DNA of 64,000 bases, taken from the IMG/VR virus record IMGVR_UViG_3300029186_000001, one strand, 5' to 3'. This DNA is from a virus. Taxonomy: Duplodnaviria; Heunggongvirae; Uroviricota; Caudoviricetes. The notes beneath the pieces were generated by a model. That model was not told the origin of the DNA. It worked only from the letters and a program-made list of their open reading frames with translations, and searched no databases. This document shows positions 17,286-30,039 of this stretch, piece by piece. Numbering within the stretch: the first letter of the stretch is position 1; each line of letters opens with the position of its first letter. Made by a program: the position numbers and the translations under genes.

Positions 17286-20200
17286 ATGAACAAGCTATCT
17301 ATGGGGGTATTTCGCTGTTCAAGTGTCAGCGAAATATTGAAATACATTAGGGCAATAACATCTCACCGAGCGCCGATTAAATACGGCGTGGAAAAGGTGG
17401 AAGGCAAAAGCTATGACCGACTGCGCCGTGAGGCGAATCAGAAGGCGATAGATTTGCTTAATTCGCTGGTGGACGGCGCGACACTGACAGATGAACAGCG
17501 CCAGATCCTGGCTGGGTACACCGGTGAAGGCGGCATTGGCGGGTCCGTCTCCGAATATTACACACCAAAGCCGATCGCTGAAGGTGTCTGGGAGATCATG
17601 AAGCTCTACGGCGCGGACGTAGGTAACACTCTGGAACCATCGGCGGGCACCGGCGTTTTTAATGAGACAAAACCGGTTGGTACGGTGATGACCGCGACTG
17701 AGATCAGCAGTGTTTCCGGTCGTATAAACCAGCTGTTACATCCGGAAGACAGCGTACAGATTTCCCCGTTCGAACAACTGGCTGTAAGCACGCCTAACGA
17801 TTCATTTGACCATGTTGTGGGTAACGTTCCGTTCGGTGGTCGTGATAACACACGCAACATCGATAAGCCTTACGCAGAAGAAACGGACATGGGTTCTTAC
17901 TTCATGCTCCGCATGCTGGACAAGATAAAGCCAGGCGGATTCATGTGCGTGATTGTGCCGCCGTCCATTGTTTCAGGTTCAAACATGAAGCGGTTACGCC
18001 TGCGCCTATCACGGAAAGCTGAATTTCTTGGTGCCCACCGCTTGCCTACCGGTACTTTTGACGCAAACGGGACCAGTACGGTCGTTGACGTGGTGCTGAT
18101 GCGCAAACATCCGGCGGAGATGGCTGAGAAAATCCCCCTGGTGGATGAAGGCACTCTTGAATCGGCAAATGTGCTTTGGCCAACGTTTATTTCTGGCAAG
18201 TGGTTTGAAAAGGACGGCCGCCGGTTTGTTCATGGCACTCAGGAGAAGGGATTCCAGGGGCGTATTGAGGTTCGTGCCGACGGGCAGATTGATAACCAGG
18301 CTCTTAAAGCGAAGCTGATTCATCGTTTCGAAAGTCGTATCGACTGGTCTTTGCTCGATATGGCTGAACCGTCACCGACCGCAGATGTTGTTGATGAAGG
18401 GGAAATGCGCCTGATTAATGGCGTATGGCAAAAATATGCTGGTGGTCGCTGGATTGAAGCTGATGCCGGGAAGGAGCTGAAGATTGAGGTTGCCAGTTAT
18501 GGCGCGGATAGCTGGGAGGCTCTTCAGCGTAACCTGACTACAACAGAAGGCCGTCTCGGTATGACATTTACCCAGATGGCAAATGTCCGCGATAAGTACA
18601 CCACATCAATCAGCGACGATATGGTGCAGCTGGTGGACTGGATTAACAGCCAGCCTGAAAAATACCGTGAACGCTTGTATCGTGGGGCGATGATTGGCCG
18701 GATGTTAATTGAATATCAGGACATGAAGGCCGCCGGGCATAGTGCTGAACAAATCGAACAGCAGCGCCTTTCTCTGGTATCCCGTTTGCAGGCAGAGATT
18801 GACCGTTTTGGTAACCCCGGTCGCGGTCCGATAGCGAAATTATCGGGGAGCGGTGCGCGCGCCTGGTTTGCTTTCCGTGGTGCAATTAAGCTGGATGGCA
18901 CTATTTCTGACGAGCTGACAGGAAAACTGGTTACGCATGATTCCAGCGCCAGTTATGACTCCACCAGCTATCAGGACACCCTGCGTTATCTCTACAGTGA
19001 TCTCACTCGCGATCCAATCCAGCTCGATGATTTCCGCCTTGCGTTTACCGGCGAACTGCCAGCCAGTGATGACGAGTTGCTTAATTTATTGGCCAGCACC
19101 CCTGGCATTGCGGTTTCACCGTATGGCGGGATTGTTCCGTTCGCCCGCGCCACCAGCGGCGACATTAACGAGATAGTGGCTCCAAAGCAGGAATTCCTCG
19201 CCACGCTCCCCGACGGTCCAGTAAAGAACAACGTCCTTAATCAGCTGGCAGCGATCGAAGAGAAGCGCATCAAGACGCCAGCAGAGAATATCCGGTTTAA
19301 GCTCAATAGCCGTTGGTTCGACCGTTCCGTGATTCTGGAATTTTTGCAGGAAAACGGCTATCCGGATCTGCGCTATGTGCAGTCAGTGCAGCTGGAAGGC
19401 GACGAAATGGTTTCTGACACCTATCACGGTGGTGATGGTCTGTTCGTCGGGCACCGATACGGTGTCGTCCAGCGCAAGGATAAAGAAACAGGCGAGATCC
19501 GCTACGAGTGGGACCGTAAATCAGGTGAAAACGCGACCGGGTTCCCGGCACAGCTGGAAAAGTATCTCAATGGTGCGCGTATCGGTGGCAAAGATAGCGC
19601 GACGGCGAACGGCTACCGCGAGCAGATGGCACTGCTTGAGGACCAGTTCAATAAGTGGATCAAGACGCACGATCGCTACGATGAGCTGGTTGCCAAATAC
19701 AACGATGTGTTCAATAGCAATATCCCGTATGAACACTCTGGCGATCCGCTTGGGTTGAAGGGATTAAGCGGTAAGCGCCAGCCATTTGATTACCAGAATA
19801 GCGAGGTGCGCCGACTGTCCGAAGATGGGCGCGGCATCCTGGGCTTCGGCACCGGGCTGGGTAAAACCACGACCGCGCTGGCGCTTGAGGCGTTCAACTA
19901 TGAGAACGGTCGCTCCACCCGTACTGCGTATGTAGTGCCTAAATCAGTGCTGGAAAACTGGTATTACGAAGCAAAAGAATTCCTGAGTGAAGAGGCATTC
20001 AGTAACTACCTGTTCGTCGGTCTTGATGTGCTGATGGATGGCGATCAGATTCGCCAGGTGCCGGTGCTCGATGAGAACGGTAAACCTGTTCTTGGTACTG
20101 ATGGCACTCCAGTTATGCGCGATGCTCTTAAGCTGGCAGATGAAGCCACTATCACGGCGCGGATGAACGCGATCCCGCACTCAAATTACCGTGCAGTCGT

Positions 20201-23200
20201 GTTTACCAAAGAACAATACGCCCGCATTCCGCTACGTGATGACACCGTAGATGAGCATGCACAGGATATGCTTTATGACTTCGTTGCCGCCGGGCGCGTA
20301 GCCAGCGCAATGGACTCCGACTCCCACCGCAAAGAGGCCGCGCGTCGCCGGGTATTGTCGGAGTATTCAGATACCGGCACCGAAAAAGCAGAGAAGTATC
20401 CGTACTTTGAGGATATGGGCTTCGATAGTGTGATCGCTGACGAAGGTCACAACTACCGCAATAGCTATAAAAATGGTCGCGAAGCGTCACAACTGGCCTA
20501 TCTGCCCACCAGCGCGGTGGCGCAATCGGCGCGGGATATGGCAATTAAAAACGCGTACCTGATGAAAAAGAATGGTGGGCGCGGACCGGTTCTCCTGACT
20601 GCAACGCCAGTCGTTAACACCCCGATCGATGCATACAACATGCTTTCTCATGTTCTGCCGAAGGAATACTGGCAGAAGATGGGGATCTACAGTCCTGATG
20701 ACTTCGTAAAATTCTTCGGCAAGACCAGGCTGGAAACGGTACAGAAAATCAGCGGTGAAGTTGAAGAAAAAATGGCGCTGGTGGGCTTTGAAAACCTTGA
20801 TGCGCTGCGCGGCATATTCCATCGCTGGACAACGCTTAAAACGGCGGAAGACGTTAAGGATACCGTGGAGATCCCGGAACTGGACGAACACCAGCAGGAT
20901 GCACCACTTACGGAAGAACAACTGGCGGCGTATGAAGAATTGCGTCAGCAGGCGGAAGCGGCAGCCAAAGCCAACAATGGCGTAACGACCTCGGTCAATG
21001 AAGACGGCGTGATTGAGCACGAGAAAGCCCGTCCGATCTTCTCAATAATCAGGGATATGGACCGCGTATGTACTGACATGGACCTGTACTATCGCAGGAT
21101 CACCTATCGTTTCCTGCCGGAGTACGCCGATGCGGTGCAGCAGCTGGCGGACAGTTTGCCTAAACAAGCCACCAGCGAAGACGACGACAGTGATGATTCG
21201 ATCACGCAGCAATCGCAATACTCCCTGATAGATAAGGGCGAGTTTATTCAGTTGCAGGTACCGGAAGCATTTGAGCAGGAAGTGAATAAGCGCCTGGCCA
21301 AGTTTGGCATTGACGAACAGACCGTAACTCACCCCGTTACGCCCAAATACGCGAAGCTGATTGCCACGCTGAAGGAGTTTTTCCCGGAAGGTAAGCAAAT
21401 CATCTTCACCGATGAAAAAACGCAACACCAGAAGCTCAAGCGCATTATCTGCAATGCTCTTAACCTTGAACCTTCAAAGGTGGGGATCCTGAATGCTCAG
21501 ACGGTTGCCGAGGCAGGTAAAACCGGTAAGAAACTGAAAGCGGTTAAACCACCGAAAGAGCTACCGGATGAACCAACAGATGCACAGATAGCGAAATACA
21601 ACGAGCAAATGGCTCTGTATGACGCCTATATCGCGCAGCAAAATGAAATGTCGCTGGGTGGGCTGGAAAAGATTGCTGCCGACTTCCAGGAGGGCCGGAC
21701 TCCGATCATCATCTGCAACAAAAAGGCAGAGGTGGGTATCAACCTGCATCGAGGAACGACTGACATCCATCATCTGACGTTGCCATGGACACCAGCCAGT
21801 ATCGCACAGCGTAACGGTCGCGGTGCCCGAGTTGGTTCCAACCGTGCAAGCGTTCGCGTTCACTACTACTGCGGCAAGGGTTCTTTCGATGAATACCGAC
21901 TGAAGACGCTGAAGCGTAAAGCAGGCTGGATCTCCGATATCCTCCGCTCAGATAAGTCTGAAATGGAGAACGCCGACGCCAACGATATGATCGAAATGCA
22001 GATGTATACCGCTAAGGATGATGGCGAACGTCTGGCAATGATGCAGGTTCAAATGGATAAGGCGAAAGCCGCGCAACGCGCTCGCCAGAAAGAACAGGCT
22101 ACTATCGACCTTCAGAACTACATCAAGGCGCAGCACGCAGCTGGCGAGGATGTGGAGGTACTTACCGCTGAATTAGAGCGAAGCAAAGCGGAACTTGAAA
22201 AGACCACCGCCGAGGTAGCTAAATTCAAACAGGCGGCAATGGCCAAGGCAGCGGATAACGCAGACTGGAAGGCCCGCTGGGGGAGTGTCCATCACACAGA
22301 CCGTATGTTGTTAGCACAGTATCGCGCGTCGTTGAAAAGCGCCATTCAGCGCAAGGCTAATATCTCTCAAGCCATCTCCCGCTATGAGAAATTATTGAAC
22401 CGTACTCAGAAGGCCGCGACGGATATCAAACGCCTGCGCCCGCTGGTGGAGGATGCAATAAATAAAGGCATTCTGGATGTAGATCCTGACCTGGTTAACC
22501 ATGCGAGTGAGTTCCTTGTTATCGGCGATCGCTCATGGCGTGTAGGCCAATACTACGATTGTGCCGGTGATATCGTTCGCATTAAGTCGCTGGACTTCGA
22601 CAGCCAGCGCGCAGACGTGGAGATCATCTTTACCTTCAAAGGCACCAAATCGGGTAACTGGGATGTGAAGACGCTGGATAAACAGGTGGATGTAACTCCC
22701 GATGAAGATGCTGTTATGCAGAAAATCAGTGGTGGCGTCTCCATCGCCGGGATTAACGACATCATTTCCTGTGACGATTTCTACCGTTTCCAGCAGCGCG
22801 GCATGATCAAAATCACTGACTCATACGGCGTTCAGACTACAGAGTCAGGCTATAGCATTGATTTTGTTGGCACCTATACGGACCCACTGAAGCATGCGGT
22901 TTACCCGGATCGCCGTGACGGCGCGCTGAAGTCGTCAATTGCAAAATGGGTGCTTGGTATGATGTCGGAAGGGAATAACCGCCAGATCCGTTCGGCAGAA
23001 ACATTCCTGGTTGAATTGTTTGGCTCCAATTATGGCGATGTAATCGCGTCATACGGAGATACGCTATCCCCTGAAGCAATTCAGGAGAAAATAGCGGATG
23101 CGATCGCCAGAATGCCGGAAAAAACAAGCCAGGGGTCTACTCGTAACGGGGATTCTGAACTTGAAGTCACCAATGCCATTTTCGGTACCAATGAGTTCCG

Positions 23201-24053
23201 GGCGTCAGATTATGAGATCACCACAGCACAGTTTGGCACCATTGGCATTTACAGCAATAAAGACGAGATCAAGCAGGCAATGGACGCAGCAAGTGCGCGC
23301 ATTGCAGCAGAACGGAAAGCCAATCTGAATCATGCAGTCGCCGCGCTGACTCAATCGTGGGTAACAGCAATCAGGGAGGCCGCCACCACAGGAAAAATCA
23401 CACCGGCAATTGCGGATGTCGTAAACGACGGCTCTAAATTTATGGATGCCTATCAAATGGATGCGGTGAAGTTGCCATCAGCCTATGGTCAACTCAGCTA
23501 TCGCATGACCTACAACCTGGTATCAATGTTTTCCGACCTTGCCATCCTTGGGCTGGTGGATCTTAACGAGGTTACGCCGGAATTGCTCAGCATGCGCAAG
23601 AATCATGTGGAGATATTGCAGAGAGTTAACACGGTTCTTGCCGGACGCACCGATGAAGAGAAACAGGCCGACGCTGATCGGATAAACCTGGCCCTTGGCA
23701 ACATCACGGAGGAAGAAATTGCCGCCAGAAACGAGAAACAAGAAGAGTTATCATCAATACAGGGTGATGCCACCAGCATAGCTCAGTCTCTTGGTCTGAA
23801 TTATCGCGTATCCACCGCCGACCTGAAGATGATGTACGCACCAAAATTCGCCGCTGGCGAGGTATTTGGGCTTCAGGAAGCCTCAGGCATGAAAGGCGTT
23901 CTTTTCCGTGCGAAAGACGCAATCAAGGCGAAATTCGGCGCTCGCTGGCTGCCAGCGAAGGCGAAGAACAGCGATTTCCCGGGTAACTGGTGGATTATCG
24001 AGACAAAACACAACGTGGCGGACGTTCTGGCCGTCATCCAACAATACGCATAA
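17286..24053 (+). CDS. darB: DarB antirestriction protein (N6-adenine methyltransferase-like domain fused to DExH helicase)
   Basis: 2255-aa ORF; VGNVPFGG methyltransferase-like motif near N-terminus and VIADEGHNYRN DExH motif mid-protein. Confidence 0.85.
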   Translation: MNKLSMGVFRCSSVSEILKYIRAITSHRAPIKYGVEKVEGKSYDRLRREANQKAIDLLNSLVDGATLTDEQRQILAGYTGEGGIGGSVSEYYTPKPIAEGVWEIMKLYGADVGNTLEPSAGTGVFNETKPVGTVMTATEISSVSGRINQLLHPEDSVQISPFEQLAVSTPNDSFDHVVGNVPFGGRDNTRNIDKPYAEETDMGSYFMLRMLDKIKPGGFMCVIVPPSIVSGSNMKRLRLRLSRKAEFLGAHRLPTGTFDANGTSTVVDVVLMRKHPAEMAEKIPLVDEGTLESANVLWPTFISGKWFEKDGRRFVHGTQEKGFQGRIEVRADGQIDNQALKAKLIHRFESRIDWSLLDMAEPSPTADVVDEGEMRLINGVWQKYAGGRWIEADAGKELKIEVASYGADSWEALQRNLTTTEGRLGMTFTQMANVRDKYTTSISDDMVQLVDWINSQPEKYRERLYRGAMIGRMLIEYQDMKAAGHSAEQIEQQRLSLVSRLQAEIDRFGNPGRGPIAKLSGSGARAWFAFRGAIKLDGTISDELTGKLVTHDSSASYDSTSYQDTLRYLYSDLTRDPIQLDDFRLAFTGELPASDDELLNLLASTPGIAVSPYGGIVPFARATSGDINEIVAPKQEFLATLPDGPVKNNVLNQLAAIEEKRIKTPAENIRFKLNSRWFDRSVILEFLQENGYPDLRYVQSVQLEGDEMVSDTYHGGDGLFVGHRYGVVQRKDKETGEIRYEWDRKSGENATGFPAQLEKYLNGARIGGKDSATANGYREQMALLEDQFNKWIKTHDRYDELVAKYNDVFNSNIPYEHSGDPLGLKGLSGKRQPFDYQNSEVRRLSEDGRGILGFGTGLGKTTTALALEAFNYENGRSTRTAYVVPKSVLENWYYEAKEFLSEEAFSNYLFVGLDVLMDGDQIRQVPVLDENGKPVLGTDGTPVMRDALKLADEATITARMNAIPHSNYRAVVFTKEQYARIPLRDDTVDEHAQDMLYDFVAAGRVASAMDSDSHRKEAARRRVLSEYSDTGTEKAEKYPYFEDMGFDSVIADEGHNYRNSYKNGREASQLAYLPTSAVAQSARDMAIKNAYLMKKNGGRGPVLLTATPVVNTPIDAYNMLSHVLPKEYWQKMGIYSPDDFVKFFGKTRLETVQKISGEVEEKMALVGFENLDALRGIFHRWTTLKTAEDVKDTVEIPELDEHQQDAPLTEEQLAAYEELRQQAEAAAKANNGVTTSVNEDGVIEHEKARPIFSIIRDMDRVCTDMDLYYRRITYRFLPEYADAVQQLADSLPKQATSEDDDSDDSITQQSQYSLIDKGEFIQLQVPEAFEQEVNKRLAKFGIDEQTVTHPVTPKYAKLIATLKEFFPEGKQIIFTDEKTQHQKLKRIICNALNLEPSKVGILNAQTVAEAGKTGKKLKAVKPPKELPDEPTDAQIAKYNEQMALYDAYIAQQNEMSLGGLEKIAADFQEGRTPIIICNKKAEVGINLHRGTTDIHHLTLPWTPASIAQRNGRGARVGSNRASVRVHYYCGKGSFDEYRLKTLKRKAGWISDILRSDKSEMENADANDMIEMQMYTAKDDGERLAMMQVQMDKAKAAQRARQKEQATIDLQNYIKAQHAAGEDVEVLTAELERSKAELEKTTAEVAKFKQAAMAKAADNADWKARWGSVHHTDRMLLAQYRASLKSAIQRKANISQAISRYEKLLNRTQKAATDIKRLRPLVEDAINKGILDVDPDLVNHASEFLVIGDRSWRVGQYYDCAGDIVRIKSLDFDSQRADVEIIFTFKGTKSGNWDVKTLDKQVDVTPDEDAVMQKISGGVSIAGINDIISCDDFYRFQQRGMIKITDSYGVQTTESGYSIDFVGTYTDPLKHAVYPDRRDGALKSSIAKWVLGMMSEGNNRQIRSAETFLVELFGSNYGDVIASYGDTLSPEAIQEKIADAIARMPEKTSQGSTRNGDSELEVTNAIFGTNEFRASDYEITTAQFGTIGIYSNKDEIKQAMDAASARIAAERKANLNHAVAALTQSWVTAIREAATTGKITPAIADVVNDGSKFMDAYQMDAVKLPSAYGQLSYRMTYNLVSMFSDLAILGLVDLNEVTPELLSMRKNHVEILQRVNTVLAGRTDEEKQADADRINLALGNITEEEIAARNEKQEELSSIQGDATSIAQSLGLNYRVSTADLKMMYAPKFAAGEVFGLQEASGMKGVLFRAKDAIKAKFGARWLPAKAKNSDFPGNWWIIETKHNVADVLAVIQQYA

Positions 24054-24086: not shown

Positions 24087-24527
24087 ATGGCCACACTATC
24101 TGATACAATAAAACCGAATAAAACATATCTTGAGGCGGTACTGCGTACGGCATTGTTAGGAAAGACAGAAGACGAATACGTTGATTTCTTCCTGTCAGGG
24201 CTACGCGGGCGATTACTGAAAAATCCCCGCCTGTACCGCAGCTATGGCCCATACTGGCCGGAAATTAAAAAATTATTACTGGAGCGCGGTTATGGTAATT
24301 TCGGTCGTCTCGTTGACCGTGACGTTCGCAAAATTTACCGTTATGACCGCCCGGCGCTGACACTCATAGCCGCGACGCTCTACAGCCAGGAGCGTTTTGA
24401 TAATGGTCAGATATACTCAGCCTGGCATTTACTGCCAGTGCCTGAAGAGGTTGACGACCAGGACTATGAGTTTGAGTCTTACGATTTGGAAGTTGAAGCC
24501 TTAGCACAGGCTGGAGAGAAAACTTGA
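24087..24527 (+). CDS. ulx: Ulx-like protein
   Basis: 146-aa ORF immediately downstream of darB, as in P1. Confidence 0.55.
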   Translation: MATLSDTIKPNKTYLEAVLRTALLGKTEDEYVDFFLSGLRGRLLKNPRLYRSYGPYWPEIKKLLLERGYGNFGRLVDRDVRKIYRYDRPALTLIAATLYSQERFDNGQIYSAWHLLPVPEEVDDQDYEFESYDLEVEALAQAGEKT

Positions 24528-24772
24528 AAAAGCGATACTACACAGTAAAGCATGGGACGCTACGAGCATTACAAGAGTTTGCTGACAAGCATAACGTTGA
24601 GGTGCGCAGGGAAGGGGGAAGTAAAGCTCTGCGCATGTACCGTCCGGACGGAAAATGGCGGACGGTCGTCGATTTCAAAACTAACAGCGTTCCCCAGGGC
24701 GTCCGCGATCGGGCATTCGAGGAATGGGAGCAGATCATCATAGATAACGCATTGCTCCTGAATGCTGATTAA
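24524..24772 (+). CDS. Hypothetical small protein (Lxc position)
   Basis: 82-aa ORF overlapping ulx stop; positional correspondence to P1 lxc only. Confidence 0.45.
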   Translation: MKKRYYTVKHGTLRALQEFADKHNVEVRREGGSKALRMYRPDGKWRTVVDFKTNSVPQGVRDRAFEEWEQIIIDNALLLNAD

Positions 24773-24777
24773 GAACT

Positions 24778-24804
24778 CTCCGGCCTAGGGAGATTAGGCC
24801 GGAG
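24778..24804. terminator. GC-rich hairpin between convergent genes
   Basis: ctccggcct-agggagatt-aggccggag; no clear U-tract. Confidence 0.4.
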
Positions 24805-24813
24805 ATAAATATA

Positions 24814-26118
24814 CTATATAAACTTAGATATAATATCGTGAATCTGTTGTAGCGGGATTTCTTCCATCTTACTCTTAATAAGAGAGCGGTTAGATGCTGT
24901 CAGTGAAGGCCATTTTGTTTTCCAGGCTAGATATGCTCGCCATGAGTAGCCTGTTTCGTAAGGTTTATTCATATAAGTCATTGAGTGTTCAACCGCATGT
25001 ATGTATTTTTTCTCAAAGTTGGTTCCTTTTACTTCAAATAAACTACCGAAATAAATAAGCCATTTTGCCAGGTGTTCATACTGCTCCCATGCGCCAGACT
25101 CTTTAGTAAGATCTATTTTTTTATCTATTATATCACAAAAAACATTTAATACCTTTTCATCATTCCAGCTATATCCAGATGATGAAATGGAGGAAATGAT
25201 ATGATAAAAAGAATCCTCTAACTTCAAGAACTCTATTTTATACTCTCTTCCGTTTTTTATTACCGATTTGATTGAGTGCCTCAATTTGTCTTTTATTTTT
25301 TTTGCTTCTGGAATTTTCTTGTTAAGTTTTCTAAAGAAATCAGACACCTCTGTTTTATCTATAACCCTAATCCCAAAGCAGGAAAAATAGTAATCTTTAA
25401 TAGGTTGCAATAGTTTCCCTCGGGAAATAAGGAAAATATTGGAGGACATTACGTTGTCCCGTGAAAATACCTTATATTCATTTATAATCGCCTTGAGGTT
25501 CGCGTCACTTAGAGAATAGCCAAGAATAACAATAGTGTTTTCATGTAGAACTGTGCTTAGTTTATTTGAAAAGTAAGAATTACCATTTATAAATCTGAAA
25601 TAATCCTCGCTAGTAACAACCATATCTGATGGGGAGTCTATAGAGCCGTGAACATGGTAGACTTTAACCTCACAATTATATTTTGGAATTGGCAGGCCGG
25701 GGGTGATTGTACACGTTCGATTCTCTCCAGCCAGTTTTTCTGCTAACTTGTCATAATTTGTCGTAATTACTTTAAATGTGTTTTCTTTGAAAAAGTCTTG
25801 AATATATTCAATTGATGGATCAAGTTCGATTGAGGCTATGATTTTCTCAATCTCCTGGTAAATATTTTTCCCCGAAAGTATAAATTTTAGTGCAATAACC
25901 TGAGCAGCCTCTTCAAGGCTAAGGTCTTTTGCTTTTCCATCAGGAAATAATTCCTCTTTGAGTGAGTCACCATCCTTCAATAAACCGCACAGTTGCTCCA
26001 ATAAAGATTGCCAACTTGGGGCTTTATCATCAGAAACAGCCTTTGAAAATCCAGTGCCTGTAAGAAAGCACAGCCTATGTGTAGCTGCTGCATAGGCAAT
26101 TTCTATATACTCGCTCAT
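24814..26118 (-). CDS. SIR2-like (sirtuin/NADase-type) domain protein with uncharacterised C-terminal helical domain; candidate antiphage effector
   Basis: 434-aa ORF; motifs FLTGTGFS, TTNYD, VYHVHGS and LGYSLSD in the N-terminal ~270 aa; GGAG RBS; markedly AT-rich relative to flanks. Confidence 0.8.
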   Translation of the reverse strand: MSEYIEIAYAAATHRLCFLTGTGFSKAVSDDKAPSWQSLLEQLCGLLKDGDSLKEELFPDGKAKDLSLEEAAQVIALKFILSGKNIYQEIEKIIASIELDPSIEYIQDFFKENTFKVITTNYDKLAEKLAGENRTCTITPGLPIPKYNCEVKVYHVHGSIDSPSDMVVTSEDYFRFINGNSYFSNKLSTVLHENTIVILGYSLSDANLKAIINEYKVFSRDNVMSSNIFLISRGKLLQPIKDYYFSCFGIRVIDKTEVSDFFRKLNKKIPEAKKIKDKLRHSIKSVIKNGREYKIEFLKLEDSFYHIISSISSSGYSWNDEKVLNVFCDIIDKKIDLTKESGAWEQYEHLAKWLIYFGSLFEVKGTNFEKKYIHAVEHSMTYMNKPYETGYSWRAYLAWKTKWPSLTASNRSLIKSKMEEIPLQQIHDIISKFI

Positions 26119-26174
26119 TACTTACTCCATTTACTTATAGTTCTACGGAGAAGTATACCCTAATGCATTGACGT

Positions 26175-26815
26175 TTATAGATAATTTCCTTTTCCTGTTA
26201 ATACTCCCTTAGGCACCTGTTTTTGTGCCAGCGTTTGGGTTCCGCGAATTATGTTAATCAGAGGGCTTAGTAACGATGGTTCCTGGCGTGCCTCAACTTC
26301 TCCAGCCATTGCCCTGATGTAGTCTGCGCTGGCAACGTTGTTGTATTCCGTCGCAAAGCAACAGAGTAACGTCAGAACATGCTCTGTCGTTATTTCGCTC
26401 CAGTTGATGTTGAAAAATTCATCGCCTTTTTTATCGTGTTCGGAATCGAAGATGCTTTGGTGGAGGATGTATTTGCCGGATTCCTTGCGCGGTAACTTGA
26501 TTGCTTTCTGGCGTTCCAGCTCCTTATAAATCTGCATGGCCTCAATTAGTACCGGCCTGCCGTTCATGAAGGGATCGCGCAACCTTACACGCTGGCCAAC
26601 TCGACCAGTAATAAAGCTGTTTTCCTCTTCCACCAGCACGATAAAACCCTTTTCCTCTTTTTCTCGCAATTCGCGCAGCAGCTGGAGTTCCATATCGCGG
26701 CGGCGTTCAGGGTAGCTGGTCCGCTCAGCCATTATCAGCTCGTTGTTGATCCATGCAGCAGTCATTGACGCCGGTTTACCGACGCTCATCGAAACAACGC
26801 ATATTTTCTTATCCA
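26175..26815 (-). CDS. Hypothetical protein, co-oriented upstream of the SIR2-like gene (mat position in P1)
   Basis: 213-aa ORF from ATG at 26815; GC content like the phage backbone. Confidence 0.5.
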
Positions 26816-27004
26816 TAGCGCCCCTACAAAAAAGAAAAGCCACCAGCGGCGGCTTAGCAATACAACTGAAGGTAGCGCCCGGTACTCAGACTGTGCCGTC
26901 CATGGAATATTTGAAAAGGGATCCATCCGTACCGGGCATGTGATGATTCTGACTGAAGTCACTTGTCAGTTGTCAATTATTTCAGATTAAAAATAATATA
27001 TTTA

Positions 27005-27565
27005 TTAGTGCATGATGTTTGCCATCTCATAGGCGTCAGCCAGCAACTCCATCTCTGACTTGTTCAGCAAGGTGAATTCTTTCTTGCCTCCAACCACACC
27101 ATCGGCATGAACAGGGACCAGCCAGGGGTATTTTTCTCTTACTTCAGCCGGTGCTGCATGCTGGTGGTGCCATCTACAAAGTGGCAACTGCTTTTTGTGA
27201 CAACCCGGCGCGGTACGACCGGAGATATGGTGCAGAGACACCTCTTCAGATATTACTCCATGCATATAGCAGGCAATGCAGGGGAGAGCGCCAAGAGCAT
27301 TGGCTATGCGCCGTTCCTCCGCCGTCGGTGTTCGTCCCTTCAAGCCACGAGATTTTATTTTTACCGCACTTTTCCGCGTTTTGCTGGCTGGTGGGCGCTC
27401 TTTCTGTTTAGCGATACGGCGGTCGATAGAATCCCGCATTTTCTGATATTGCGATTCTCGCCAGGCGGGGTCAGCCAACTTTTCCCGTTGCCGAGCGATC
27501 GCTCGTTCTCTGGCTGCCTTCTGCCACTCGCGGCGCTGTTCAAGTTTTTGTTCGATTGTTTTCAT
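27005..27565 (-). CDS. ref: Ref recombination-enhancement HNH endonuclease
   Basis: 186-aa ORF; Cys/His-rich HNH-type region CIACYMHG...HHISG...CRWHHQH; position next to cre. Confidence 0.75.
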   Translation of the reverse strand: MKTIEQKLEQRREWQKAARERAIARQREKLADPAWRESQYQKMRDSIDRRIAKQKERPPASKTRKSAVKIKSRGLKGRTPTAEERRIANALGALPCIACYMHGVISEEVSLHHISGRTAPGCHKKQLPLCRWHHQHAAPAEVREKYPWLVPVHADGVVGGKKEFTLLNKSEMELLADAYEMANIMH

Positions 27566-27570
27566 ATGGC

Positions 27571-27597
27571 AAAAAAAAAGGCGGCCTAATGGCCGCC
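27571..27597 (-). terminator. Rho-independent terminator on minus strand ending 6 bp before ref ATG
   Basis: ggcggcc-taat-ggccgcc followed (minus strand) by a 9-T run. Confidence 0.65.
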
Positions 27598-27664
27598 AAT
27601 GATGTCAAGGAGTTAAGTAATGGCAACGTCTTCGTAGTTGACAAAAACTGCGGCTTAATTATAG

Positions 27665-28174: not shown

Positions 28175-29206
28175 CTAATCGCCATCTTCCAGCAGGCGCA
28201 CCATTGCCCCCGTTTCACTATCCAGGTTACGAATGTAGTTCATGACAATATTTACGTTGGTCCAGCCACCAGCTTGCATGATCTCCGGTATTGAAACTCC
28301 GGCGCGGGCCATATCTCGCGCGGCTCCGACACGGGCACTGTGTCCAGACCAGGCCAGGTACCTCTGGCCAGAGTCATCCTTAGCCCCGTAAATCAATCGG
28401 TGAGTTGCTTCAAAAATCCCTTCCAGGGCGCGAGTTGATAGCTGGCTGGTGGCAGATGGCGCGGCAACACCATTTTTTCTGACACGGCAAAACAAGTAGT
28501 TATTCGGATCATCAGCCACACCAGAGACAGAAATCCATCGCTCAACCAGTTTAGTTACCCCCAGACTAAGTGCCTTCTCTACACCAGCGGTGCTAACCAG
28601 CGTTTTCGTTCTGCCAATATGGATTAACATTCTCCCACCGTCAGTACGTGAGATATCTTTAACTCTGATCCTAGAAATTTCGGCTATACGTAACAGGGTG
28701 TTATAAGCAATCCCCAGAAATGCCAGATTACGTATATCCTGGCAGCGATCGCTATTTTCCATGAGTGAACGAACCTGGTCGAAATCAGTGCGTTCGAACG
28801 CCAGCGCCTGTTTTGCACGCTCACCGGCATCAACGTTTTCTTTTCGGATCCGTCGCATGACCAGTGAAACAGCATTGCTGTCACTTGGTCGTGGCAGCCC
28901 GGACCGACGATGAAGCATATTTAGCTGGCCCAAATGTTGCTGGATAGTTTTCACTGCCAGACCGCGCGCCTGAAGATATAGAAGATAATCGCGAACATCT
29001 TCAGGTTCTGCGGGAAACCATTTCCGGTTATTCAACTTGCACCATGCCGCCCACGATCGGCAAACGGACAGAAGCATTTTCCAGGTATGCTCAGAAAACG
29101 CCTGGCGATCCCTGAACATGTCCATCAGGTTCTTGCGAACCTCATCACTCGTTGCATCGACCGGTAATGCAGGCAAATTTTGGTGTACGGTCAGTAAATT
29201 GGACAT
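28175..29206 (-). CDS. cre: Cre site-specific tyrosine recombinase
   Basis: 343-aa ORF MSNLLTVHQNLPALPVDATSDEVRKNLMDMFRDRQAFSEHTWKMLLSVCRSWAAWCKLNN..., recognised as P1 Cre. Confidence 0.98.
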   Translation of the reverse strand: MSNLLTVHQNLPALPVDATSDEVRKNLMDMFRDRQAFSEHTWKMLLSVCRSWAAWCKLNNRKWFPAEPEDVRDYLLYLQARGLAVKTIQQHLGQLNMLHRRSGLPRPSDSNAVSLVMRRIRKENVDAGERAKQALAFERTDFDQVRSLMENSDRCQDIRNLAFLGIAYNTLLRIAEISRIRVKDISRTDGGRMLIHIGRTKTLVSTAGVEKALSLGVTKLVERWISVSGVADDPNNYLFCRVRKNGVAAPSATSQLSTRALEGIFEATHRLIYGAKDDSGQRYLAWSGHSARVGAARDMARAGVSIPEIMQAGGWTNVNIVMNYIRNLDSETGAMVRLLEDGD

Positions 29207-29624
29207 TTAACACTCAGATAATGGTTTTAAGTAAAGTGTACAGGATCGGCTCTGCCTTTACCTGTTTATGGTTCTCGTCATAGAAACGCCAGCGACCGCG
29301 CGTGCGTTCTATTTTCTCTTCACCGCGCGATAATGACAGTTGACAACTATCACGATCAAACCCTTTTGCCCGCCAGTAACCACGGTTTTTCTCAAGCTCA
29401 ATATGAGTGGACACTTTAGCAGCTGAATATCCCATTTTTCACCTCTGATTGATTGGTGGTGCTAAGTGCGCTACGCGAAATCTGGAGCACTAACACTGCC
29501 AACATTTCACAGATTTTACGTAGCGCAACCTTGATCAAATGATCAAGTGATCACTATTTGACCTGATAAGGTATTGAACTGTATGGATTTACAGGTAAAT
29601 TGATCATGTTCAATAACCCTTAAG

Positions 29625-29658
29625 ATAACTTCGTATAATGTATGCTATACGAAGTTAT
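29625..29658. promoter_or_regulatory. loxP: loxP recombination site
   Basis: ataacttcgtata-atgtatgc-tatacgaagttat, canonical 13-8-13 loxP. Confidence 0.98.
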
Positions 29659-29701
29659 TAGGTCTGAAGAGGAGTTTACGTCCAGCTGCGCATAAAAATC
29701 A

Positions 29702-29718
29702 AGAATTATTAGAGCAAT
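29702..29718 (-). promoter_or_regulatory. C1 operator-like 17-mer
   Basis: agaattattagagcaat. Confidence 0.55.
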
Positions 29719-29784
29719 AAATTTTGAGAGAATAATCCCACTCCACCAGCCAAAAACTGGATTGTTTTTCATAGTTGTTTGACA

Positions 29785-29801
29785 ATTGCTCTAATAAATT
29801 A
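29785..29801 (+). promoter_or_regulatory. C1 operator-like 17-mer
   Basis: attgctctaataaatta. Confidence 0.6.
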
Positions 29802-30039
29802 TAGTTTTGCCGCCGTTTCGTAATACGACTTTGGATTCACTATTTAATGTGTCTTCAGCGTTGTAGAGCGGCTCAGAAGGAAATGAGCAAACAGGGAAAC
29901 CTTATACAACGGCATTACAGCTATGCATTGCTCATCTTACACACAGCGCAATGTTGTTAGATTACCCCAGCATGGATCATGGGTGAAACAGTAGGTCAGA
30001 GCTTCAGGCTCTGTGTTGTCAATACAGTGAGGCATAATT

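What the first reader, a model, noticed from the sequence alone, without database searches (positions are those of the whole stretch)
24806..26170. AT-rich island with a compact SIR2-like gene at the position of the P1 res-mod locus
The 434-aa minus-strand ORF at 24814-26118 carries the hallmark motifs of the SIR2-like family seen in antiphage NADases (FLTGTGFS, TTNYD, VYHVHGS, LGYSLSD) in its first ~270 residues. The remaining ~160 residues are Lys-rich and helical, and do not resemble the SLOG, TIR, HerA or Argonaute partners I know from Thoeris, SIR2-HerA, DSR or pAgo systems. The gene is strongly AT-rich compared with both flanks and is bounded by a hairpin on one side and the stop of the upstream gene on the other. 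From recalled P1 gene order it sits where the ~5-kb EcoP1I type III res-mod pair lies, between darB-ulx and ref-cre, so one defense module appears to have been swapped for another. A stand-alone 434-aa SIR2 effector would be smaller than the described SIR2 defense proteins I can recall, so it may be an undescribed single-gene or two-gene system.
Basis: partly seen in the sequence, partly recalled or inferred. Interest (0 to 1): 0.85.

Follow-up and report, generated by a model that had tools for sequence, protein, structure and literature searches.

The report
Stand-alone SIR2 gene in P1 hotspot
A P1-like phage-plasmid carries a compact one-gene SIR2 (NAD-degrading type) protein exactly where phage P1 keeps its restriction system. 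It is most likely a single-protein anti-phage "suicide switch": a plausible but untested candidate of a well-known kind, not a new principle.

Summary
A 434-aa minus-strand ORF (24814-26118, 35% GC against about 50% flanks) has a SIR2_2 domain (Pfam E 1.6e-23) with the catalytic Asn and His invariant. It is followed by a 180-residue all-helical C-terminal domain with no specific relative.

It is the only gene in a 1,402-bp cassette (24773-26174) bounded by the stop codons of lxc and mat. This is the known P1 "RD-1" variable site, which holds EcoP1I res-mod in P1 and the validated defence gene CapRel in phage SJ46.

About 65 PLSDB plasmids carry this allele and about 57 carry a 59%-identical second allele in the same slot. 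The family is widespread, always about 406-480 aa with the same architecture. It has no conserved neighbour in 73 loci, is under purifying selection, and often lies beside other defence genes or at prophage ends.

Best reading: a stand-alone, DSR-like NADase abortive-infection protein. It is not a member of DSR1/2, Thoeris, SIR2-HerA, SPARSA or Lamassu.

A 2024 preprint reports a ~440-aa "sole-Sir2" with NADase activity, and a close homologue of it that protects against T2/T4. Whether that is the same family could not be tested.

Verdict: real, sensible, moderately interesting, a new variant of a known kind. No phenotype is known.

The parts
24773..26174 (.). 1,402-bp AT-rich cargo cassette in the P1 RD-1 hotspot. 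It is everything between the lxc stop codon and the mat stop codon.
   Evidence: Alignments of this window, the allele-2 plasmid, phage SJ46 and P1 lose all similarity exactly after the lxc TAA and the mat TAA. GC dips to 0.30-0.38.
24814..26118 (-). SIR2-family ORF, 434 aa (RefSeq WP_000006034.1, 'SIR2 family protein').
   Evidence: Purifying selection: dN/dS 0.07-0.21 in seven of eight comparisons.
25354..26118 (-). N-terminal SIR2 (NADase-type Rossmann) domain, residues 1-255. It contains the GTGFS loop and the catalytic N121 (TTNYD) and H157 (HVHGS).
   Evidence: Pfam SIR2_2 E 1.6e-23. A family profile aligns residues 11-257 to the DSR2 SIR2 domain (E 4e-11), with N121 matching DSR2 N133 and H157 matching DSR2 H171. 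N121, D123, H155 and H157 are invariant in 42 homologues. Foldseek's top hits are DSR2, ThsA and KomC.
24817..25353 (-). C-terminal helical-repeat domain, residues 256-434. Inferred sensor or regulatory module. Trp-rich invariant positions: W344, W353, W393, W399, W403.
24777..24805 (-). 11-bp-stem hairpin between the convergent lxc and SIR2 genes. Probably a terminator, though the T-tract is weak.
   Evidence: The allele-2 and SJ46 cassettes appear by eye to carry different inverted repeats at the same place; these were not scanned.
26119..26174 (-). 56-nt leader with a GGAG Shine-Dalgarno (26125-26128) and a -10-like TATACT (26152-26157) whose -35 is poor. It differs at one base between the two SIR2 alleles.
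   Evidence: The consensus scan found no sigma-70 promoter upstream of the gene on this strand at 9/12 matches.
24524..24772 (+). lxc (backbone; left border of the hotspot).
26175..26843 (-). mat (backbone; right border of the hotspot). It lies directly upstream of the SIR2 gene and is co-directional with it.

Best explanation
The ORF is a stand-alone, single-protein anti-phage effector-sensor of the defence-sirtuin kind. It is carried as exchangeable cargo in the mat-lxc (RD-1) hotspot of a P1-like phage-plasmid.

Proposed mechanism:
1. The protein is made at a low level in the lysogen, from a weak promoter in its leader and/or by read-through from mat.
2. It is held inactive by its C-terminal helical-repeat domain.
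3. An infection cue, most likely a protein of a superinfecting phage bound by that domain as in DSR2, releases or oligomerises the SIR2 domain.
4. The SIR2 domain hydrolyses NAD+ to ADP-ribose and nicotinamide.
5. NAD+ depletion aborts the infection, protecting sister cells and the resident P1 plasmid.

Shown here: the domain identity, intact catalytic residues, single-gene organisation, hotspot position, mobility and purifying selection.

Inferred: NADase rather than deacylase chemistry, the sensor role of the C-terminal domain, the trigger, the expression mode and the anti-phage phenotype.
For: (1) Domain identity. SIR2_2 scores 83.8 bits. The PADLOC hits are all defence sirtuins: PDC-S25, ThsA, LmuA-SIR2, Dsr2. 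The best solved relatives are DSR2, ThsA and KomC, all NADases. No Zn-ribbon tetrad typical of deacylating sirtuins appears among the conserved residues.

(2) Catalytic residues. N121 and H157 are invariant and align to DSR2 N133 and H171. H171A appears as a mutant in the titles of deposited DSR2 structures.

(3) Single gene. The cassette has 41 nt downstream and 56 nt upstream of the ORF and nothing else. No neighbour family recurs in 73 loci from many phyla.

(4) Position. The same slot holds the EcoP1I type III R-M system in P1. In phage SJ46 it holds a RelA/SpoT gene in the same orientation. By name, host phage and size (373 aa) this gene is inferred to be CapRel-SJ46, a validated single-gene abortive-infection system (PMC9712102). 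The site is a recognised variable region (PMC6906374; PMC10865808).

(5) Neighbourhoods elsewhere. Chromosomal homologues lie next to Gabija, dGTPase, TIR, AbiD, HEPN, Mrr and type I R-M genes. One lies next to a prophage integrase. The family is also in about 30 IMG/VR viral contigs.

(6) Allelic diversity. Two 59%-identical alleles share the slot. dN/dS is 0.07-0.21 in seven of eight comparisons.

(7) Precedent. A ~440-aa stand-alone Sir2 protein converts NAD+ to ADPR in vitro, and a close homologue of it protects E. coli from T2 and T4 (bioRxiv 10.1101/2024.12.27.630466).
Against: - There are no experimental data for this protein or for any proven family member.
- The C-terminal domain is unusually conserved for an arms-race sensor: mean column identity 67% across the 42 aligned homologues, and 45-56% overall identity persists in Actinobacteria and Bacteroidota members. 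It is never recombined with other effectors. This fits a conserved cue or an autoinhibitory/oligomerisation role as well as it fits a phage-protein sensor.
- No convincing sigma-70 promoter precedes the gene. It may depend on mat transcription, which in P1 is C1-repressed and late-activated. That would be odd for a lysogen-protecting gene.
- PADLOC v2 gave only SIR2-domain-level hits, none to a model of the whole protein.
- A DefenseFinder survey of P1-like elements does not name it in the text searched.
Confidence: 0.62

Rival explanations
1. It is an orphan signal-activated effector, ThsA-like in logic. The SIR2 domain is switched on by a small molecule or partner made by a gene elsewhere in the host, such as a chromosomal TIR/ThsB-type sensor. 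The gene alone would then give no defence.
For: PADLOC ThsA models hit the SIR2 core at E 7e-18. A TIR-domain gene lies 95 nt downstream on the same strand in Vreelandella (L016), and a TIR relative is near the gene in a Pseudomonas locus (two ThsB-like hits). High conservation of the C-terminal domain would suit a conserved small-molecule ligand.
Against: No SLOG or Macro domain is present, and the C-terminal domain is a helical repeat rather than a nucleotide-binding fold. TIR neighbours occur in only 1-2 of 73 loci. The P1 cassette moves as one gene between hosts, which argues for autonomy.
Confidence: 0.1
2. It is a true NAD-dependent protein deacylase or ADP-ribosyltransferase that modifies a host or plasmid protein. 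That would be a regulatory or maintenance role, as RefSeq's name 'SIR2 family NAD-dependent protein deacylase' implies, rather than an immune NADase.
For: The RefSeq/PGAP product name. The chemistry cannot be read from sequence. The family is strongly conserved under purifying selection.
Against: Every named SIR2 relative found by sequence or fold is a defence NADase (DSR2, ThsA, KomC); one chain is named only 'NAD-dependent protein deacetylase' and was not identified. No Zn-binding module appears among the conserved residues. The patchy, horizontally transferred distribution in hotspots and defence islands is atypical for a housekeeping regulator.
Confidence: 0.1
3. It serves P1's own lytic cycle or acts as a counter-defence. 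It would be co-transcribed with mat from the C1-controlled/late promoter and act during P1 development, for example by removing NAD+ or NAD-derived immune signals that host defences need.
For: The gene lies 56 nt downstream of mat on the same strand with no clear promoter of its own. In P1, mat has a C1 operator and a late promoter. The adjacent darB-ulx genes are anti-restriction functions.
Against: Most family members sit in bacterial chromosomes with no phage context. The inferred CapRel gene in the same slot and orientation is a defence gene that works from its native promoter. NAD+ depletion would also hurt P1 replication.
Confidence: 0.07
4. It is a decaying, non-functional passenger gene.
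For: None beyond the lack of a known phenotype.
Against: The ORF is intact in 60-70 plasmids. dN/dS is 0.07-0.21 in seven of eight comparisons, the catalytic residues are invariant, and 50-60% identity is kept across phyla.
Confidence: 0.02

Closest known systems
DSR2 / DSR1 (defence-associated sirtuins; single-protein NADase abortive-infection systems)
   Same: N-terminal SIR2 domain with the same Asn/His catalytic pair. DSR2 is the best sequence and fold match among solved structures. Both work as single genes. In both, a helical-repeat region follows the SIR2 domain; the DSR2 C-terminal domain is described as an alpha-solenoid that binds the phage tail tube (PMC11850899 abstract).
   Different: This protein is 434 aa, against about 1,000-1,200 aa. 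NCBIfam Dsr2 and Dsr1 equivalog scores are 30.6 and 21.2 bits, against cut-offs of 1,400. The 180-residue C-terminal domain has no detectable sequence or specific fold relation to the DSR2 MID/CTD regions. No trigger is known.
'sole-Sir2' (bioRxiv 10.1101/2024.12.27.630466)
   Same: A single protein of about 440 aa with a DSR2-like Sir2 domain and no partner. It shows NAD+ to ADPR activity in vitro. A close homologue that is not linked to CRISPR protects against T2 and T4.
   Different: The preprint says the Sir2 domain is C-terminal and the novel part N-terminal, the reverse of what is seen here. The described members sit between cas3 and cas5c of type I-C operons. No member of the present family was found in a cas context. 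No sequences were available, so identity is untested.
ThsA of type I Thoeris
   Same: Similar size (476 aa). The SIR2 NADase core is detectably homologous.
   Different: ThsA has a C-terminal SLOG (or Macro) ligand domain and needs an adjacent TIR protein, ThsB. Here the C-terminus is a helical repeat, and no ThsB is present in the cassette or conserved elsewhere.
CapRel-SJ46 and EcoP1I res-mod (other cargo of the same P1 hotspot)
   Same: The same insertion slot between the lxc and mat stop codons. The SJ46 RelA/SpoT gene, inferred to be CapRel-SJ46, is also a single gene, in the same orientation, followed by what appears by eye to be a hairpin.
   Different: The proteins and chemistries are unrelated: tRNA pyrophosphorylation and DNA restriction, against presumed NAD+ hydrolysis.
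PADLOC candidate PDC-S25
   Same: Best PADLOC hit (E 5e-24). It is a single-gene SIR2-containing candidate.
   Different: The match covers only the SIR2 core: residues 100-253 against model positions 127-283 of 517. The domain context and length differ.

Membership tests
SIR2_2 / defence-type sirtuin superfamily (PF13289) | Profile match above Pfam's gathering score | tested here: met
   83.8 bits against a cut-off of 24.5, E 1.6e-23, residues 117-245.
SIR2_2 / defence-type sirtuin superfamily (PF13289) | Catalytic Asn and His of the NAD+ pocket conserved | tested here: met
   N121 and H157 are invariant in 42 homologues. They align to DSR2 N133 and H171.
SIR2_2 / defence-type sirtuin superfamily (PF13289) | NAD+ hydrolase activity | not testable with these tools
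   Needs an enzyme assay.
DSR1 / DSR2 | Full-length equivalog match (NCBIfam NF041818 / NF041819) | tested here: not met
   21.2 and 30.6 bits against cut-offs of 1,400. Only the SIR2 core aligns.
DSR1 / DSR2 | Protein of about 1,000-1,200 aa with a large MID/CTD sensor region | tested here: not met
   434 aa. The C-terminal domain is 180 residues and unrelated by sequence or specific fold.
DSR1 / DSR2 | Works as a single gene | tested here: met
   One-gene cassette. No conserved neighbour in 73 loci. This is organisation only; function was not tested.
Thoeris (ThsA/ThsB) | C-terminal SLOG or Macro ligand-binding domain on the SIR2 protein | tested here: not met
   No Pfam hit beyond SIR2_2. 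The C-terminal domain folds as a helical repeat.
Thoeris (ThsA/ThsB) | Adjacent TIR-domain ThsB gene | tested here: not met
   Absent from the P1 cassette. A TIR neighbour occurs in only 1-2 of 73 loci.
SIR2-HerA (Nezha) | Adjacent HerA ATPase gene | tested here: not met
   No recurrent neighbour. No HerA among the top neighbour families listed.
SPARSA (SIR2-APAZ with short pAgo) | APAZ domain and adjacent short Argonaute | tested here: not met
   No such domain or neighbour.
Lamassu (LmuA-SIR2 with LmuB SMC) | Full-length LmuA match and adjacent SMC-like LmuB | tested here: not met
   The PADLOC LmuA hit covers only residues 20-219 of the 433-position model. No conserved SMC neighbour.
sole-Sir2 (preprint) | Single Sir2 protein of about 440 aa with no partner | tested here: met
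   434 aa, stand-alone.
sole-Sir2 (preprint) | Sequence homology over the non-Sir2 part, and domain order as described (Sir2 C-terminal) | not testable with these tools
   No sequences or accessions are held for the preprint. Its text gives the opposite domain order.
P1 RD-1 hotspot cargo | Lies between mat and lxc, replacing res-mod | tested here: met
   The hotspot is defined in PMC6906374 and PMC10865808.

The most novel reading that the evidence does not exclude
This is a distinct and so far unnamed family of miniature single-protein NADase immune sensors. Its family-specific 180-residue helical-repeat domain is conserved across phyla. That domain would recognise a conserved infection cue rather than a fast-evolving phage structural protein, so it would be a compact, broadly acting sensor-effector. 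In P1 its expression would be wired to the C1/late-controlled mat transcript, so that immunity is tuned by the resident phage's own life-cycle switch.
Probability: 0.2. Interest if true: 0.65.

Novelty: new variant of a known kind. Interest (0 to 1): 0.45.

Why it matters
If it is confirmed as an autonomous defence gene, three things follow.

- It would be one of the smallest stand-alone SIR2 immune proteins. That makes it a tractable model for how a short helical domain gates an NADase.
- It would add a third defence type to the P1 mat-lxc hotspot, alongside type III R-M and the inferred CapRel. This would support treating the other RD-1 cargo seen in PLSDB plasmid annotations (YaaC, PIN, DUF2971, GNAT, EAL) as candidate defence genes.
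- It is common. About 17% of P1-like plasmids in PLSDB carry one of the two alleles. Allele 1 is in 70 of 5,426 complete E. coli genomes. The hosts include human clinical isolates (blood, urine, stool) and livestock strains such as ETEC and O26/O111/O55 serotypes, which is relevant to phage-therapy host range.

It does not change any principle of bacterial immunity.

Tried and rejected
- **Partner gene search.** ORFs were called in 73 homologous loci and clustered. The commonest neighbour cluster occurred in only 7 loci, at varying positions. The two-gene hypothesis was rejected.
- **HEPN reading of the C-terminus.** An RxxxxxH pattern (R411-H417 in the consensus) is not conserved, and the His is absent in this protein. 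Rejected.
- **Weak Pfam OTU hit** (E 0.081, below cut-off). Treated as noise.
- **AlphaFold DB fold search.** The library was unavailable.
- **Same C-terminal domain fused to other effectors.** None was found among 1.84 billion representatives.
- **Link to 'sole-Sir2' through a type I-C cas context.** No cas genes were seen near family members in the loci inspected, and the preprint's sequences are not held. Unresolved.
- **RNA families in the region.** Only a sub-threshold suhB/mmgR hit outside the cassette.
- **Literature.** Searches by RefSeq accession and for SIR2 in P1 or phage-plasmid papers found no description of this gene.
- **INPHARED phages.** None of the 50,697 records carries the gene. 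It is found only in records filed as plasmids and in IMG/VR prophage contigs.

Full report
**1. Observation**

The window holds a P1-like phage-plasmid in the order darB (17286-24053, +), ulx (24087-24527, +), lxc (24524-24772, +), a 434-aa ORF (24814-26118, -), mat (26175-26843, -), ref (27005-27565, -) and cre (28175-29206, -).

It is 35.4% GC, and sliding windows inside it read 0.30-0.38, against about 0.5 on both sides.

An 11-bp-stem hairpin (24777-24805) follows its stop codon. The mat stop codon lies 56 nt upstream of its ATG.

**2. What the protein is**

- *Family hits.* Pfam gives SIR2_2 at 83.8 bits (cut-off 24.5) and nothing else of note. PADLOC hits are all defence sirtuins and cover the SIR2 core only: PDC-S25, ThsA, LmuA-SIR2 and Dsr2. 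NCBIfam Dsr2 and Dsr1 equivalogs score 30.6 and 21.2 bits against cut-offs of 1,400.
- *Catalytic residues.* A profile of 42 homologues aligns residues 11-257 to the SIR2 domain of DSR2 (E 4e-11). N121 of TTNYD falls on DSR2 N133, and H157 of HVHGS falls on DSR2 H171. H171A appears as a mutant in the titles of deposited DSR2 structures. N121, D123, H155 and H157 are invariant.
- *Whole-protein model.* The AlphaFold model is confident (pLDDT 85, pTM 0.84). Its best solved fold matches are DSR2, ThsA and KomC, through the SIR2 domain only (TM about 0.47 on the query).
- *Fixed architecture.* A profile of this C-terminal domain, searched against 1.84 billion representative proteins, finds just 94 clusters. 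The hits of 406-480 aa (the full-length ones) have the domain at about residues 255-435, and the shorter hits are taken to be fragments. All 10 divergent members that were scanned have SIR2_2 at the N-terminus. The architecture is fixed and the C-terminal domain is private to this family.

**3. Single gene or system**

In P1-like elements, similarity between this window, an allele-2 plasmid, phage SJ46 and P1 stops exactly at the lxc TAA and the mat TAA. The mobile unit is therefore 24773-26174, 1,402 bp, with room for one gene only.

Seventy-three homologous loci were drawn from a collection holding one genome per bacterial or archaeal species. They include Gamma-, Beta- and Alphaproteobacteria, Desulfobacter, Actinobacteria and Bacteroidota. 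No neighbouring protein family recurs; the commonest cluster is in 7 loci at varying positions. The gene is a stand-alone unit.

**4. Context evidence for defence**

- *The slot in P1.* P1 has the EcoP1I res-mod genes in this slot, in the opposite orientation.
- *The slot in SJ46.* Phage SJ46 has a 373-aa RelA/SpoT gene there, in the same orientation as the SIR2 gene. By name, host phage and size it is inferred to be CapRel-SJ46, which has been shown experimentally to be a single-gene abortive-infection system triggered by a phage capsid protein (PMC9712102).
- *The hotspot.* The site is already described as variable region RD-1 (PMC6906374; PMC10865808).
- *Cargo range.* Of about 703 PLSDB plasmids with these flanks, 62-65 carry this allele and about 57 carry a second allele (435 aa, 59% identical) in the same place. 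Others are empty or are annotated as carrying RelA/SpoT, GNAT, YaaC, PIN, DUF2971 or EAL genes.
- *Prevalence.* Allele 1 is in 70 of 5,426 complete E. coli genomes, and 71 of its 72 copies are on plasmids.
- *Other prophages.* A chromosomal E. coli homologue sits beside a prophage integrase. About 12 non-P1 IMG/VR viral contigs carry family members, and several of these lie within about 2 kb of the contig end, as judged from the returned ranges.
- *Chromosomal neighbours.* These include Gabija (GajA 1.7e-149, GajB 2.4e-111), dGTPase, TIR, Abi_2, HEPN, Mrr and a type I HsdR.
- *Selection.* dN/dS among allele-1 variants is 0.07-0.21 in both domains. One small-count comparison of the C-terminal domain gives 0.73.

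**5. Mechanism proposed**

The best-supported reading is a DSR-like one-protein sensor-effector. The SIR2 domain hydrolyses NAD+ when the C-terminal helical domain detects infection, and the infection is aborted.

Domain identity, active-site integrity, autonomy and hotspot residence are shown. The chemistry, the trigger and the phenotype are inferred.

Two observations sit awkwardly with this reading:
- The C-terminal domain is highly conserved (67% mean column identity) and is never shuffled onto other effectors. That is unlike typical arms-race sensors. It may recognise a conserved cue or act mainly in autoinhibition or oligomerisation.
- Only a weak promoter candidate precedes the gene: TATACT at 26152-26157 with a 3/6 match at -35. 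The gene may be partly read through from mat, which in P1 has a C1 operator and a late promoter.

The 56-nt leader differs at only one base between the two alleles, even though the proteins are 59% identical. This suggests it is a functional expression element or a recombination joint.

**6. Comparison with known systems**

It works most like DSR2 or DSR1 but fails their membership tests on length, equivalog score and sensor domains.

It is not Thoeris (no SLOG or Macro domain, no ThsB), not SIR2-HerA, not SPARSA and not Lamassu, because none of the required partners is present. PDC-S25 matches at domain level only.

The closest functional precedent is "sole-Sir2" (bioRxiv 10.1101/2024.12.27.630466). 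This is a single protein of about 440 aa that converts NAD+ to ADPR, and a close homologue of it protects against T2 and T4. That text places the Sir2 domain at the C-terminus and the genes inside type I-C cas operons. Identity with that family is unresolved.

A DefenseFinder survey of P1-like elements names type III R-M, dGTPase, PrrC and CapRel, but no sirtuin system appears in the text that was searched; its tables are images and were not read.

**7. Verdict**

However, the hotspot swap is already known, the kind of system (a stand-alone SIR2 NADase) is known, and a similar small Sir2 has been reported in a preprint.

I rate it a new variant of a known kind, with moderate interest (0.45). 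It is an easy and worthwhile candidate for a phage-challenge experiment.

Noticed in passing
window 26786-26962 and 26175-26843 (minus strand): Relative to P1's annotated 250-aa Mat, the first ~30 residues (MDPFSNIPWT...) lie in a separate 58-aa ORF in another frame. The main mat ORF here starts later: 222 aa from a GTG, or 213 aa as annotated in RefSeq plasmids. From residue 31 onward it is 95% identical to P1 Mat. This is either a frameshift or a mis-annotated start in P1.
   Followed up: partly
RD-1 slot (window 24773-26174 equivalent) in about 700 PLSDB plasmids: The same slot is annotated in other P1-like plasmids as holding single genes for YaaC-family, PIN-domain, DUF2971, GNAT and EAL(+HTH) proteins, or it is empty. 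A DUF2971 gene also sits directly downstream of a chromosomal SIR2 homologue (L031). Most of these look like untested defence candidates.
   Followed up: partly
window 26119-26174 versus L002 6087-6142: The 56-nt leader upstream of the two SIR2 alleles differs at only one base, and the first ~28 codons are about 84% identical. The rest of the genes has diverged to 59% protein identity. This suggests a recombination joint inside the 5' end or a conserved expression element.
   Followed up: partly
L016 9406-10308 (Vreelandella nanhaiensis): A 301-aa TIR-domain protein (TIR_2 E 6.6e-20) lies 95 nt downstream of the SIR2 homologue on the same strand. A related TIR gene is near the homologue in a Pseudomonas MAG (L035). 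This could be an occasional Thoeris-like pairing or just defence-island neighbours.
   Followed up: partly
L093-L095 versus window 24814-26118: Synonymous divergence among 'allele 1' copies reaches dS about 0.3. The flanking lxc/mat backbone is 95-99% identical across most plasmids that carry it (not measured for these particular copies). The cargo alleles are therefore probably older than, or exchanged independently of, the backbone.
   Followed up: no
window 29400-30000: A second AT-rich dip (GC 0.365-0.383) lies between cra and the c1 side of the immunity region. It was not examined.
   Followed up: no
window 27564-27631 (minus strand): A sub-threshold Rfam match to suhB/mmgR sRNA (23.6 bits against a gathering score of 41, E 0.084) just upstream of ref. 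Probably chance.
   Followed up: no
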